A stretch of DNA of 64,000 nt from Candidatus Saccharimonadia bacterium (lineage in GTDB: Bacteria > Patescibacteriota > SICC01): positions 138,847 to 202,846 of the forward strand of contig JANWJF010000001.1 of assembly GCA_025449535.1 (NCBI GenBank). The letters run 5' to 3'. Below, piece by piece: positions 6,094-58,881 of the stretch. Under the pieces are notes generated by a model. The model saw only the letters and a list, made by a program, of their open reading frames with translations, searched no databases and was not told the DNA's origin. The position numbers were made by a program, and so were the translations under genes. Position 1 is the first letter of the stretch. Every line of letters starts with the position of its first letter.

Positions 6094-6819
6094 ATGCGCA
6101 CGAGTACCATAGTTGCCCTAGTTGCAGCCGTCGTGCTTTTCTTCACTGGCCTTGCGCTGATGAAGAACGGCGACAAGCCGACGGAGCCCAATCAACAACA
6201 ACCGCAAAGCGGTAAGGAGCACGAACTGAGGCCTCACGCCATTAAGTTCACCCGCTGCCATGCGACCAAGCTCCGTCCGTGCGGTAGTACGTACCCGCTC
6301 GAAACCTCCGGATGGCTAGAGGTCTCTACCGAGTACCGCTGTCCGGACCACGCCAAGCCATGCGTCTACGCGATCGGTCCGTACTACACCATGTCGACCG
6401 CGGAACGGCACCGGTTCGACCGAAATCCGTGCGCCGTGGTCGCCAACGCAGCCCGGGTCGGCTTCGAACGGAACGGGTTCACGGTCCGGATTCCTAAGTG
6501 CGTCAACGCCCGCGGGCATGCGTTCATGAATGCCACGAACGGCCTGACGCGTAGCCAAGAACCAGCACCCACCCCGTGGGCCGTACCCGCACCCCCGCCG
6601 CTCCGGATTGAACCGGGCTACCGCTTTGGACCGCTCACCGTGGTTCGACGCTGTAAACCGCACCCTGACAGCAAGCTCTGCTTGGTACTCAGGATTGTTG
6701 AGCCAGTGGCTTCAGCCAAAGAGCTCAGCAATTTCGACCGGAATCCGTGCAACGTCGTATTCGAACATGTCGGGGGAGCTTGTCGCTCGTACGAGCGCCT
6801 CGCCGTCCTGAACATGTAA
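6094..6819 (+). CDS. secreted Cys-containing hypothetical protein with duplicated FDRNPC motif
   Basis: signal peptide/TM (MRTSTIVALVAAVVLFFTGLALM); AGGAG Shine-Dalgarno 7 nt upstream of ATG; internal repeat HRFDRNPCAVV / SNFDRNPCNVV. Confidence 0.6.
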   Translation: MRTSTIVALVAAVVLFFTGLALMKNGDKPTEPNQQQPQSGKEHELRPHAIKFTRCHATKLRPCGSTYPLETSGWLEVSTEYRCPDHAKPCVYAIGPYYTMSTAERHRFDRNPCAVVANAARVGFERNGFTVRIPKCVNARGHAFMNATNGLTRSQEPAPTPWAVPAPPPLRIEPGYRFGPLTVVRRCKPHPDSKLCLVLRIVEPVASAKELSNFDRNPCNVVFEHVGGACRSYERLAVLNM

Positions 6820-6946: not shown

Positions 6947-6973
6947 TTGACAACATGTATACATATGTATACT
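6947..6973 (+). promoter_or_regulatory. candidate lexA promoter (TTGACA ... TATACT) with overlapping perfect 16-bp palindrome GTATACATATGTATAC (6957-6972)
   Basis: palindrome verified as its own reverse complement; lies between -35-like and -10-like hexamers about 90 bp upstream of lexA ATG. Confidence 0.45.
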
Positions 6974-7062
6974 ATCTAACTGCGCTCCCTCCTCCCAGCC
7001 CTTTCCAGGCTCGAAAACGAAAATGAGAAAGGGCTGGGCGCGCTCCCTAACCAAAGGACATT

Positions 7063-7695
7063 ATGAGCAACGAAGAACTTTCACCACGTCAACGTCAGAC
7101 GTTCGACGTGATCCAGAAACATATCAAGGACCACGGCCTGCCGCCCACGATCCGCGAGATCATGGCGGAACTTAAGGTTAACTACCCGCGCGGCGTGCAG
7201 CGGCACCTCGAAGCGCTCGAGAAGAAAGGGTATATTACCCGCGACTCGCGCAGCCGCGGCATCACCATCGCGGACAAGTTCCGCCAGGTGGCCGCGGACC
7301 TATCGGACGCCATCGTGAAGATTCCCCTGCTCGGCCGGATCCCGGCCGGCGGGCCGATGCTGGCCGAGGAAAACGTCGAGGACTGGGTGACGCTCCCGAC
7401 CGACCTCACCAAGGGCAAGCGGGACGTCTTCATCCTGCGTGCCCAGGGCGAATCGATGATTGGCGCCGGCATCTTCGACGGCGACCTCCTGATCTGTCAG
7501 CCCGTCGACCAAGCTGAGAATGGCGATATCGTGGCTGCGCTGATCGGTGAAGACGCCACGGTCAAACGGTTGGTAAAGCGCCGTGACGCGACGTACCTGA
7601 AGCCTGAGAATCCCAAGTACGAGAACATCTACCCCGATCAGGAGTGGAAGGTCCAAGGCAAGGTAATGGCGGTCGTCAGGTCGAACGTGCGCTGA
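7063..7695 (+). CDS. lexA: LexA repressor (S24 peptidase)
   Basis: N-terminal winged-helix region, C-terminal S24 domain with Ser (GESM) and Lys (VKR) in the expected spacing. Confidence 0.95.
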   Translation: MSNEELSPRQRQTFDVIQKHIKDHGLPPTIREIMAELKVNYPRGVQRHLEALEKKGYITRDSRSRGITIADKFRQVAADLSDAIVKIPLLGRIPAGGPMLAEENVEDWVTLPTDLTKGKRDVFILRAQGESMIGAGIFDGDLLICQPVDQAENGDIVAALIGEDATVKRLVKRRDATYLKPENPKYENIYPDQEWKVQGKVMAVVRSNVR

Positions 7696-7696
7696 G

Positions 7697-7858
7697 ATGA
7701 TGCGCTACGCCCCGGTACCGATCGACGAACGCGCGGCCCGGACCGCCCAACGTCGGATGGCCTATCGAGCCCCTGTCCGGAACGTCGACTCCACGCTCTG
7801 GGCCGGCATCTTGTTCTGGTTCGGATTCGCCGCGCTGGCGGTCATCGCCGGCCTTTAG
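7697..7858 (+). CDS. 53-aa small membrane protein, translationally coupled to lexA
   Basis: ATG one nt after lexA TGA (TGAgATG); translated by hand MMRYAPVPIDERAARTAQRRMAYRAPVRNVDSTLWAGILFWFGFAALAVIAGL; Arg-rich N-terminus plus one C-terminal TM; below ORF-track size cutoff. Confidence 0.35.
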   Translation: MMRYAPVPIDERAARTAQRRMAYRAPVRNVDSTLWAGILFWFGFAALAVIAGL

Positions 7859-57734: not shown

Positions 57735-58775
57735 TCAGGATTTCTTCGCCGGCTCGACTTCCGAGACCGGTTCCTCGGGCAGTTCCGTGAACCGTTCCAA
57801 CTTCTCCGCCACCTTGGCCTGCTTGCCGCTCAGCGAGCCGGCCTTGTCGATCTTCCCTTTCATCCGGTCGTAGTCCTTCTCGATGGACGGGATCGTCTTC
57901 TGGGCGTTGCCGAGGTGCTTGAACAGCAATCCCAGGTTCGCGCCCAGCTTGCCGGAGTCCTGCTGGATCGCTCGCAGCTCGTTGAGGACCTCCTTGGCCC
58001 GCGCCTCGATCTGCTCGCCCTCGAAGCTCTTCAGGACTAGCTGCAGGAACAGGTAGAAGTTGTTGGGCGAGACCAGGATCACGTGCTTCTCGGACGCGAA
58101 GTCGAAGAGGTCGGTATTGTTGTAGATCTCCTGGAACACCGCCTCGCCAGGCACGTACATGAACGCGTAATCGACGGTCTGCTCGCCCGGCAGGATGTAC
58201 TTCTTGGCGATGTCCGTGACGTGCTTCTTCACCTGCTGGCGGAACTCCCGCAGCAACGGCTCGCGGCCCTCGCCCTTCACCTTCTGGGCCGCCAGCCACT
58301 TCTCCAGCGGGAACTTCGAGTCGATCGGAATCATGCCGCTCGAGGTCAGCACCACCGCGTCCACCTTCTCCCCACTCTTGAACGTATGTTGCAGCTTGAA
58401 CTTCGTCTTCGGCAGGCATTCGGAGAGGATGTCCTTCATCAACGACTCGCCGACATTGCCGCGCAGCTTCGGCGAGCGGAACACGTCGCGCATCTCCTCG
58501 ATCGACTGGCCCATCTTCTGGATCCGGCCGACCTCCTTGTTGAGCTCGGCGATCACGCCGGCCGCCTTGTCCAGCCGCTGGCTGATCTCCTTGCTGGCCT
58601 CCTGCGATCCCCGGCTGGCGTGACGTTGGTCCTCCTTGAAGTCCTTCAACCACTGCATCAGGGCGGAATCACCATCGTCGGACTCACGCGCCTTCCGCTG
58701 CTTGAGCAACTCATAATAGACGGCGCCGATCATCACGATCAGCACGGCGGCAGCGATGACGAGGATAGTAGTCAT
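57735..58775 (-). CDS. rmuC: DNA recombination protein RmuC
   Basis: N-terminal TM + coiled coil, C-terminal RmuC nuclease-like region (YAFMYVPGEAVF, HVILVSPNNFY). Confidence 0.85.
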   Translation of the reverse strand: MTTILVIAAAVLIVMIGAVYYELLKQRKARESDDGDSALMQWLKDFKEDQRHASRGSQEASKEISQRLDKAAGVIAELNKEVGRIQKMGQSIEEMRDVFRSPKLRGNVGESLMKDILSECLPKTKFKLQHTFKSGEKVDAVVLTSSGMIPIDSKFPLEKWLAAQKVKGEGREPLLREFRQQVKKHVTDIAKKYILPGEQTVDYAFMYVPGEAVFQEIYNNTDLFDFASEKHVILVSPNNFYLFLQLVLKSFEGEQIEARAKEVLNELRAIQQDSGKLGANLGLLFKHLGNAQKTIPSIEKDYDRMKGKIDKAGSLSGKQAKVAEKLERFTELPEEPVSEVEPAKKS

Positions 58776-58881
58776 ATGTATACGGTACTCCGTTTTTTCT
58801 ACTGCTTCCAGCGTATACCAAACGGAAGAGAGCGAGCGCCTATGATGGTGGGCGCTCGCCCGTTGCTTCCGTCACTGCTGG

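What the first reader, a model, noticed from the sequence alone, without database searches (positions are those of the whole stretch)
6947..6973. Perfect 16-bp palindrome GTATACATATGTATAC within the lexA promoter: candidate SOS operator of an unfamiliar type
The palindrome (6957-6972) sits between a -35-like TTGACA (6947-6952) and a -10-like TATACT (6968-6973), about 90 bp upstream of the lexA ATG, which is where an autoregulatory LexA box would be expected. It does not match the operator classes I know (CTGT-N8-ACAG; GAAC-N4-GTTC; TCGAAC-N4-GTTCGA; GTTC-N7-GTTC). A 12-bp inverted repeat (CCCAGCCCTTTC at 6995-7006 / GAAAGGGCTGGG at 7027-7038) flanked by direct GCGCTCCCT copies follows in the leader.
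Basis: partly seen in the sequence, partly recalled or inferred. Interest (0 to 1): 0.5.

Follow-up and report, generated by a model that had tools for sequence, protein, structure and literature searches.

The report
Variant LexA (SOS) operator in lexA promoter
A perfect 16-bp palindrome inside the promoter of the DNA-damage repressor gene lexA of an uncultured Patescibacteria bacterium is very probably LexA's own binding site, and it is a modified version (ATAC half-sites in place of GAAC) of the classical Gram-positive SOS box.

Summary
GTATACATATGTATAC (6957-6972) lies inside a near-consensus promoter, TTGACA-17-TACTAT (6947-6975), 90 bp upstream of a bona fide lexA gene (7063-7695).

TTGACA-N4-GTATACAT[A/T]TGT[A/C]TAC-TAT is almost invariant upstream of lexA in nine lineages (the window plus eight relatives, LexA 64-91% identical), while the flanking DNA diverges.

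A sister clade (49% identical) carries GTGAACGAATGTTTAC at exactly the same promoter position. The site is therefore an ATAC-N4-GTAT derivative of the GAAC-N4-GTTC box, and the recognition helix has changed with it (YPRGVQRH versus SKNAVAKL).

The only other near-match in the 64 kb overlaps the start codon of rmuC, an SOS gene in E. coli and Vibrio. A site is present at rmuC in 5 of 7 lineages examined.

A blind metagenome scan for the 16-mer hit four lexA promoters among 120 loci. Three belong to unrelated LexA lineages (two Nitrospirota lexA loci, one next to dinB, and one lineage of unknown affiliation).

LexA binding, damage induction and sites at recA or uvrA could not be tested. The one prior paper on the Patescibacteria SOS system was not readable.

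The inverted repeat in the leader is a conserved RNA hairpin supported by compensatory changes.

Verdict: new variant of a known kind, moderate interest.

The parts
6947..6952 (+). -35 hexamer TTGACA of the lexA promoter
   Evidence: It is invariant in all orthologous promoters examined.
6957..6972 (.). Perfect 16-bp palindrome GTATACATATGTATAC, the proposed LexA operator (half-site core ATAC / GTAT, 4-bp spacer)
   Evidence: It is conserved with 0-1 changes in L001-L005, L081, L083 and L084. It occupies the same promoter position as GTGAACGAATGTTTAC in sister-clade locus L086.
6970..6975 (+). -10 hexamer TACTAT with a 17-bp spacer; its first three bases are the last three of the palindrome
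   Evidence: One search gives 10 of 12 consensus matches. TACTAT is invariant in the orthologues.
6982..7048 (+). lexA 5' leader element: GCGCTCCCT (6982-6990), a 12-bp stem (6994-7005 pairing with 7027-7038) around a 21-nt loop, then a second GCGCTCCCT (7040-7048)
   Evidence: A stem of 9-14 bp is present in 9 of 9 orthologues, with compensatory changes. There is no credible Rfam match: only two far-sub-threshold hits to eukaryotic lncRNA models on the opposite strand, 20.9 bits against a gathering score of 70 and 11.8 against 48.
7053..7058 (+). Shine-Dalgarno-like AAAGGA, 4 nt upstream of the lexA ATG
   Evidence: read from the sequence. The role is inferred.
7063..7695 (+). lexA (210 aa)
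   Evidence: Pfam LexA_DNA_bind (1.2e-20) and Peptidase_S24 (1.5e-30). Ala95-Gly96, Ser131 and Lys168 are invariant in alignment A3. The protein is identical to P0001, named LexA by NCBI and JGI.
7697..7858 (+). Small ORF (53 aa, hydrophobic C-terminal helix) starting 2 nt after the lexA stop; probably co-transcribed with lexA
   Evidence: Genes of 41-52 aa are called at the same position in L081, L083 and L084. Sequence conservation is weak.
58768..58783 (-). Second site, GTATACATATGACTAC on the minus strand (2 mismatches), overlapping the rmuC start codon
   Evidence: The identical site is found in L207, L209 and L334, and a shifted site in L210.
57735..58775 (-). rmuC (346 aa), candidate second regulon member
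   Evidence: Pfam RmuC, 1e-47. rmuC/yigN is an SOS gene in E. coli and V. cholerae (PMC6590174, PMC5963079).

Best explanation
The palindrome is the autoregulatory operator of LexA in a high-GC, Saccharibacteria-like lineage of Patescibacteria.

Proposed mechanism. A LexA dimer binds the 16-bp dyad GTATAC-N4-GTATAC, one winged-helix domain per half-site. The half-site core is ATAC/GTAT, in register with the GAAC/GTTC of the Gram-positive box. The dyad covers the promoter spacer and the first three bases of the -10 hexamer (TTGACA-N4-[16-mer]; -10 = TACTAT), so bound LexA blocks RNA polymerase. After DNA damage, RecA-stimulated self-cleavage at Ala95-Gly96 (catalytic Ser131/Lys168) would remove the repressor. 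That would induce lexA, the small ORF behind it and at least rmuC.

Shown here: the anatomy of the site, its conservation, its positional homology with a GAAC-type box, the co-variation of the recognition helix, and the recurrence of the same palindrome at other lexA genes.

Inferred only: binding by LexA, repression, and damage induction.
For: 1. The gene is a complete LexA.
2. The promoter is TTGACA-17-TACTAT, and the palindrome lies inside it.
3. The string TTGACA-N4-GTATACAT[A/T]TGT[A/C]TAC-TAT is kept in the window and in L001-L005, L081, L083 and L084, whose LexA proteins are 64-91% identical. Upstream DNA and the leader diverge.
4. In each 6-21 kb relative locus around lexA, the promoter site is the only hit with up to 1 mismatch.
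5. The sister clade (P0057, 49% identical, named Doudnabacteria) has TTGACA-TTGG-GTGAACGAATGTTTAC in the same register.
6. The recognition helix tracks the operator type. It reads YP[RK]G[VI]Q[RG]HL in 41 of 47 clade members, SKNA[VI]AKLL in the sister group, and SSSTVH.HL in loci that carry a perfect CGAAC-N4-GTTCG.
7. The only other near-match in the window overlaps the rmuC start codon. The same site recurs in L207, L334 and L209, and a shifted site in L210. It is absent only where rmuC directly abuts the upstream HAD-hydrolase gene (L208, L333). rmuC is LexA-regulated in E. coli and Vibrio.
8. A blind metagenome scan for the 16-mer gave 4 lexA promoters among 120 loci. Roughly 0.04 would be expected if hits fell at random among gene promoters (my estimate, assuming one lexA per about 3000 genes). 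Three of the four have LexA only 35-37% identical to the window protein: L114, next to dinB, and L203, whose relatives are named Nitrospirota, plus L174 of unknown affiliation.
9. Two further Nitrospirota loci retrieved through L203's LexA homologues (L331, L332) carry the same box at lexA and have dinB a few genes downstream of lexA.
Against: - There is no binding or expression data.
- The classical core SOS genes of this clade (recA, uvrA, dinB) could not be reached, so the regulon test rests on rmuC alone.
- The right half of the rmuC site lies in coding sequence (ATG ACT AC), so part of its conservation is due to the protein. Two of seven rmuC orthologues lack a site.
- Unrelated regulators also use GTATAC-N4-GTATAC palindromes. 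Examples are upstream of a BlaI-like gene in L168, upstream of a short ORF of unidentified function in L148/L202, and in multi-copy phage arrays. The sequence alone does not identify the binding protein.
Confidence: 0.8

Rival explanations
1. The palindrome is a genuine LexA box, but it serves only lexA autoregulation. The rmuC match is a by-product of coding sequence and shared ancestry, so no wider regulon uses this motif in the clade.
For: Only two sites occur in 64 kb. The right half of the rmuC site is codons 1-3 of the gene. L208 and L333 lack a site. No further site was found in about 213 kb of clade DNA.
Against: The non-coding left half, GTATACAT, is kept in L209 and L334 although the upstream DNA cannot be aligned. 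L210 has a separate site 21 bp upstream of the ATG. A site is present whenever rmuC has its own intergenic region. rmuC is an SOS gene elsewhere.
Confidence: 0.2
2. The palindrome is the operator of a different transcription factor that controls the topA-lexA intergenic region, and not of LexA itself.
For: In L081, L083 and L084 topA is transcribed divergently from the same intergenic region. Other regulators use the same palindrome in other organisms.
Against: In the window an extra 241-aa ORF puts topA about 1 kb away, yet the site stays with lexA. The sister clade has a canonical LexA-type GAAC box in the same position. The palindrome recurs at lexA genes in Nitrospirota and one other lineage, in different genomic contexts. 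No candidate alternative regulator is conserved nearby.
Confidence: 0.07
3. The conserved string is promoter architecture only (-35, an AT-rich spacer, -10) and binds no repressor. Its dyad symmetry is incidental.
For: The conserved block coincides with the core promoter, and AT-rich spacers can aid DNA melting in a GC-rich genome.
Against: Promoter spacers are not normally conserved base for base. Here the conserved bases form a perfect dyad, and the only substitutions seen are in the 4-bp centre or at a single half-site base. The same dyad occurs at rmuC without the TTGACA/TACTAT context. In Nitrospirota it lies downstream of the -10.
Confidence: 0.04

Closest known systems
Gram-positive / Actinobacteria LexA box (Cheo box), GAAC-N4-GTTC, consensus CGAACRNRYGTTCG (PMC4951493)
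   Same: Dyad symmetry, 4-bp spacer, an AT-rich centre (ATAT) and the invariant AC...GT inner bases. The site sits over the core promoter of lexA. The GAAC-type box of the sister Patescibacteria clade occupies the same promoter register.
   Different: Two of the four core bases differ in each half-site (GAAC to ATAC, GTTC to GTAT). The recognition helix is YPRGVQRH, whereas loci with a perfect CGAAC-N4-GTTCG have SSSTVHGH.
Cyanobacterial LexA box RGTAC-N3-DGTWCB (Mazon et al. 2004; quoted from memory, and cited as a variation of the GAAC motif)
   Same: TAC-N4-GTA core and the same spacing. It differs from ATAC by one base per half-site.
   Different: The outer core base is G in cyanobacteria and A here. 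The protein lineage is different. No cross-binding test was possible.
Verrucomicrobia LexA box TGTTC-N4-GAACA (PMC4951493)
   Same: It is another published case in which a 14-bp dyad with a 4-bp spacer diverged from the GAAC motif through changes in helix 3 of the helix-turn-helix.
   Different: The half-sites are inverted relative to GAAC, and the sequence is different.
Patescibacteria LexA motif of Sanchez-Osuna, Barbe and Erill 2017 (Environ Microbiol 19:3465, PMID 28618189)
   Same: Same superphylum and the same question. It is cited among studies in which LexA recognises a direct-repeat motif. GTATAC-N4-GTATAC can also be read as a direct repeat.
   Different: Unknown. The paper is not held, and no held paper quotes its motif. 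The genome assemblies that carry this clade's lexA have recent-looking accessions, which suggests they post-date that study; this is my inference and was not checked.
LexA-regulated rmuC (yigN) of E. coli and V. cholerae (PMC6590174, PMC5963079)
   Same: A LexA-type site lies at rmuC.
   Different: The box sequence differs (CTGT-N8-ACAG there), and here the site overlaps the start codon.

Membership tests
LexA autoregulatory (SOS) operator | The adjacent gene encodes a canonical LexA: winged-helix DNA-binding domain, S24 peptidase domain, Ala-Gly cleavage site and Ser/Lys catalytic pair | tested here: met
   Pfam PF01726 and PF00717. A95-G96, S131 and K168 are invariant in alignment A3.
LexA autoregulatory (SOS) operator | A dyad-symmetric site overlaps the core promoter of lexA | tested here: met
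   The palindrome (6957-6972) lies inside TTGACA-17-TACTAT at 6947-6975.
LexA autoregulatory (SOS) operator | The site is conserved upstream of lexA orthologues | tested here: met
   It carries 0-1 changes in eight relative lineages with LexA 64-91% identical, while the flanks diverge.
LexA autoregulatory (SOS) operator | The same motif lies upstream of other DNA-damage genes (recA, uvrA, dinB, ...) | tested here: inconclusive
   A site is present at rmuC in 5 of 7 lineages. No recA, uvrA or dinB gene occurs in the roughly 213 kb of clade DNA that could be fetched.
LexA autoregulatory (SOS) operator | Sequence-specific binding by LexA and induction by DNA damage | not testable with these tools
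   This needs EMSA or footprinting and expression data.
GAAC-N4-GTTC (Cheo box) class | Half-site core GAAC / GTTC | tested here: not met
   The core here is ATAC / GTAT. The best GAAC-type match in the clade's lexA upstream regions has 3-4 mismatches.
GAAC-N4-GTTC (Cheo box) class | Inverted repeat with a 4-bp spacer, positioned over the promoter | tested here: met
   The register is the same as that of the GAAC-type box in L086.
GAAC-N4-GTTC (Cheo box) class | Recognition helix of the SSSTVH.HL type | tested here: not met
   The helix here is YPRGVQRHL.
Cyanobacterial RGTAC-N3-DGTWCB box | Half-site GTAC / GTWC | tested here: not met
   The site has ATAC, one base different per half-site. 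The cyanobacterial consensus is quoted from memory.
Published Patescibacteria LexA motif (PMID 28618189) | Match to the motif reported in that paper | not testable with these tools
   The paper is not held, and the citing papers that are held do not give the motif.
Known RNA families (for the leader hairpin) | A match to an Rfam covariance model | tested here: not met
   Only two chance-level hits to eukaryotic lncRNA models on the opposite strand, far below their gathering scores.

The most novel reading that the evidence does not exclude
GTATAC-N4-GTATAC is a LexA-box class that has not been described. It is used by at least three unrelated LexA lineages whose recognition helices differ: YPRGVQRH in this Saccharibacteria-like Patescibacteria clade, FLW[AT]AAR.H in Nitrospirota, which have lexA loci with dinB nearby, and LPRAAANH in the lineage of L174. 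That would be convergent evolution onto a single operator sequence. In the Patescibacteria clade lexA would also carry a new structured 5'-leader RNA, adding post-transcriptional control of the SOS repressor.
Probability: 0.4. Interest if true: 0.6.

Novelty: new variant of a known kind. Interest (0 to 1): 0.48.

Why it matters
LexA is the standard example of a conserved regulator whose binding motif keeps changing; a 2021 review of the field counts 17 motifs. This site appears to capture one such step. Two sister clades of Patescibacteria keep the same promoter, the same 16-bp frame and the same AC-N4-GT core, but have exchanged GA for AT in each half-site and rewritten the first turn of the recognition helix. 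That gives a clean pair for mapping which residues read which bases.

With the motif in hand, the SOS regulon of these uncultured, reduced-genome bacteria could be predicted from sequence alone. The same palindrome at Nitrospirota lexA loci suggests the motif is more widespread than this one clade, or arose more than once.

Practical impact is modest. This is one more variant of a well-understood system.

Tried and rejected
- Metagenome scan for GTATACATWTGTATAC. It stopped at 120 loci. Most hits were AT-rich or microsatellite-like DNA, or operators of unrelated regulators. It never reached the window's own genome, so it could not define the regulon. It was useful only for the unexpected lexA hits.
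- The same scan in viral contigs. No lexA gene was found, only phage contigs with multi-copy arrays of the palindrome.
- Signature searches for recA, uvrA, uvrB, ruvB and dinB in all clade loci found nothing.
- A 3-mismatch hit at 53336, over a possible holB start codon, was rejected. About 4.8 such hits are expected per window, and it is not conserved in L207-L210.
- A conserved GGCATAACGGAGTATAGTATA string upstream of the PMT (glycosyltransferase) gene that begins a run of same-strand genes ending in rmuC in L207-L209 and L333 was rejected as a LexA site. It reads as the -10 and start region of the divergent 781-aa gene and has no dyad.
- The GTATAC hexamers next to the topA start (5914) and upstream of rmuC (58813) are single half-sites. 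About 7 GTATAC hexamers are expected in a window of this length and composition (my estimate); 11 are observed.
- Rfam search of the leader gave no family.
- Literature searches for the motif, or for the Patescibacteria or Nitrospirota SOS box, found nothing that quotes such a motif.

Full report
**1. The observation**

The sequence is as described. TTGACA is at 6947-6952, the perfect palindrome GTATACATATGTATAC at 6957-6972, TATACT at 6968-6973, and the lexA ATG at 7063. The leader holds a 12-bp inverted repeat and two GCGCTCCCT copies (6982-6990 and 7040-7048).

Two corrections are needed. The 5' arm CCCAGCCCTTTC is at 6994-7005, one base left of what was stated. The consensus scan prefers TACTAT (6970-6975) as the -10, giving TTGACA-17-TACTAT with 10 of 12 matches.

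Perfect 16-bp palindromes are not rare in themselves. The window has four against about two expected, and the other three are GC-rich. This AT-rich 16-mer in a roughly 64% GC genome is far beyond chance. Matches with up to 3 mismatches number 0.00 expected and 2 observed. Over the 12 half-site positions, hits with up to 2 mismatches number 0.28 expected and 2 observed.

**2. The gene and the organism**

ORF 7063-7695 is a complete LexA. It has the Pfam LexA_DNA_bind and Peptidase_S24 domains, and the Ala95-Gly96 cleavage site, Ser131 and Lys168 are invariant in alignment A3. The identical protein (P0001) is recorded on an 812,893-bp contig and is named 'Patescibacteria group bacterium' LexA. 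The closest genomes are metagenome-assembled genomes labelled Patescibacteria or Candidatus Saccharibacteria.

The neighbourhood is topA, lexA plus a small ORF, dprA, then mfd. This order is conserved in relatives.

**3. Conservation**

Upstream regions were read from eight further lineages, L001-L005, L081, L083 and L084, whose LexA proteins are 64-91% identical to the window's. All of them keep TTGACA-N4-GTATACAT[A/T]TGT[A/C]TAC-TAT, while the DNA on either side diverges. The only substitutions are in the 4-bp centre (ATAT to ATTT) and, in one lineage, at one half-site base. In each relative locus around lexA this is the only hit with up to 1 mismatch.

**4. What kind of operator it is**

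The next LexA clade is 44-50% identical and is named Doudnabacteria. Its locus L086 has TTGACA-TTGG-GTGAACGAATGTTTAC upstream of lexA. That is a GAAC-N4-GTTT box in exactly the same register as the window's TTGACA-ACAT-GTATACATATGTATAC.

The window's site is therefore a derivative of the Firmicutes/Actinobacteria GAAC-N4-GTTC box (PMC4951493). Each half-site has changed from GAAC to ATAC, while the outer GT...AC, the inner AC...GT and the spacing are unchanged.

The protein changed in parallel. The start of the recognition helix reads YP[RK]G[VI]Q[RG]HL in 41 of 47 clade members and SKNA[VI]AKLL in the sister group. It reads SSSTVH.HL in the Firmicutes and Actinobacteria loci that carry a perfect CGAAC-N4-GTTCG.

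**5. A second site**

The only other near-match in the window is at 58768-58783. On the gene strand it reads GTATACATATGACTAC and overlaps the ATG of rmuC (Pfam RmuC).

The same 16-mer is present at rmuC in L207, L334 and L209, whose RmuC proteins are 90, 84 and 71% identical, although their upstream DNA cannot be aligned. L210 (61%) instead has GTATTCAAATGTATAG 21 bp upstream of the ATG. L208 and L333 have no site; in both, rmuC directly abuts the preceding HAD-hydrolase gene, with a gap of only a few bases.

rmuC (yigN) belongs to the SOS regulons of E. coli and V. cholerae (PMC6590174, PMC5963079).

One caveat applies. The right half of this site is codons 1-3 of the gene, so only the left half is free of coding constraint.

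**6. Independent support from unrelated lineages**

The metagenome scan for the 16-mer returned mostly AT-rich noise and operators of other regulators. Four of the 120 loci nevertheless have the palindrome directly in front of a lexA gene. I estimate about 0.04 would be expected if hits fell at random among gene promoters, assuming one lexA per about 3000 genes.

One of the four (L160) belongs to the window's clade. The other three (L114, L174, L203) have LexA proteins only 35-37% identical to the window's and different recognition helices.

Relatives of the L203 protein are named Nitrospirota. Two further Nitrospirota loci retrieved through those homologues (L331, L332) also carry GTATACA[AT][AT]TGTATA[CT] just downstream of a TTGACA promoter. 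In L332 lexA, a 79-aa ORF and dinB lie one after another; in L331 dinB is a few genes further downstream. In L174 the arrangement is TTGACA-A-GTATACAAATGTATAC-TATACT.

The palindrome is thus repeatedly tied to lexA whatever the surrounding genes. This is hard to explain unless LexA reads it.

**7. Mechanism**

The best-supported reading is classical SOS autoregulation. A LexA dimer on the dyad occludes the -10 and spacer. RecA-stimulated self-cleavage then de-represses lexA, the small ORF behind it and rmuC.

Binding, repression and induction are inferences.

**8. The leader**

All nine orthologues have a perfect stem of 9-14 bp that starts 14-20 nt after the -10. Five of the eight outermost pairs vary while pairing is kept; four of these show full double compensatory changes. 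RNAalifold finds double compensatory changes at 9 of its 10 predicted pairs.

The stem is flanked by C/U-rich stretches: GCGCTCCCT on both sides, or GCTCTCTC on the 3' side in some lineages. There is no U-tract, so it is not an intrinsic terminator, and it matches no Rfam family.

Pairing is conserved while the sequence is not. This argues for an RNA-level role, such as stabilising the 5' end of the mRNA or controlling translation, and against a second protein operator. That role is inference.

**9. Novelty**

No held paper mentions a GTATAC-type LexA box. The one directly relevant study (Sanchez-Osuna et al. 2017, on Patescibacteria) could not be read. It is cited for a direct-repeat motif, and GTATAC-N4-GTATAC can formally be read that way too. 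I therefore rate the finding a new variant of a known kind, with a real chance, perhaps 30%, that the motif or something close to it is already published.

**10. Verdict**

The site is a LexA operator of the GAAC-N4-GTTC lineage with altered half-sites. It is of moderate interest, mainly for studying how LexA specificity evolves and for predicting SOS regulons in uncultured Patescibacteria and Nitrospirota.

Noticed in passing
window 6982-7048: The lexA 5' leader has a 12-bp stem (6994-7005 pairing with 7027-7038) between two GCGCTCCCT copies. All nine orthologues keep a 9-14 bp stem through compensatory changes, with C/U-rich flanks. It has no credible Rfam match and no U-tract. It may be a new cis-regulatory or mRNA-stabilising RNA element.
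   Followed up: partly
window 7697-7858: A 53-aa ORF with a basic N-terminus and a hydrophobic C-terminal helix starts 2 nt after the lexA stop. Genes of 41-52 aa are called at the same position in L081, L083 and L084, with weak sequence similarity. By analogy with small membrane-bound SOS cell-division inhibitors, it could be one; that is inference only.
   Followed up: partly
L114 2090-2105; L203 5745-5760; L331 9864-9879; L332 9985-10000: Nitrospirota lexA genes carry the same GTATAC-N4-GTATA[CT] palindrome between a TTGACA promoter and the lexA ATG. dinB follows lexA directly in L114, follows a 79-aa ORF in L332, and lies a few genes downstream in L331. Their LexA recognition helix (FLW[AT]AAR.HL) differs from that of the window.
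   Followed up: partly
L174 1439-1454: A third LexA lineage of unknown taxon (37% identical to the window protein, helix LPRAAANHV) has TTGACA-A-GTATACAAATGTATAC-TATACT. The palindrome exactly fills the promoter spacer.
   Followed up: no
L220, L222, L251, L256, L267, L273, L281, L282 (IMG/VR) and L164 (metagenome): Phage contigs with GC 0.46-0.49 carry 3-5 perfect copies of (T)GTATACATATGTATAC(A) within 5-14 kb, each with similar short flanks. This looks like a multi-copy phage regulatory operator. No lexA gene is present in these stretches.
   Followed up: no
window 6094-6819: A 241-aa ORF has a signal-peptide-like N-terminus and two 'FDRNPC.VV' repeats, and no Pfam match. It lies between topA and lexA in the window, whereas in L081, L083 and L084 topA and lexA are directly divergent, 190-285 bp apart.
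   Followed up: no
L207 1825-1915, L208 3960-4095, L209 3080-3212, L333 1165-1356: The string GGCATAACGGA(G/C)TATAGTATA is conserved at the start of a 781-aa gene of unknown function that diverges from the PMT (glycosyltransferase) gene. It reads as a TATACT-type -10 about 10 nt before the ATG, which would mean a very short leader.
   Followed up: no
L094 9447-9485: Two copies of the palindrome lie 7 bp apart (GTATACATTTGTATAC-gccccct-GTATACAAATGTATAC) upstream of a 355-aa ORF of unidentified function, on a 1.3-Mb contig with GC 0.57. This is an unrelated tandem operator.
   Followed up: no
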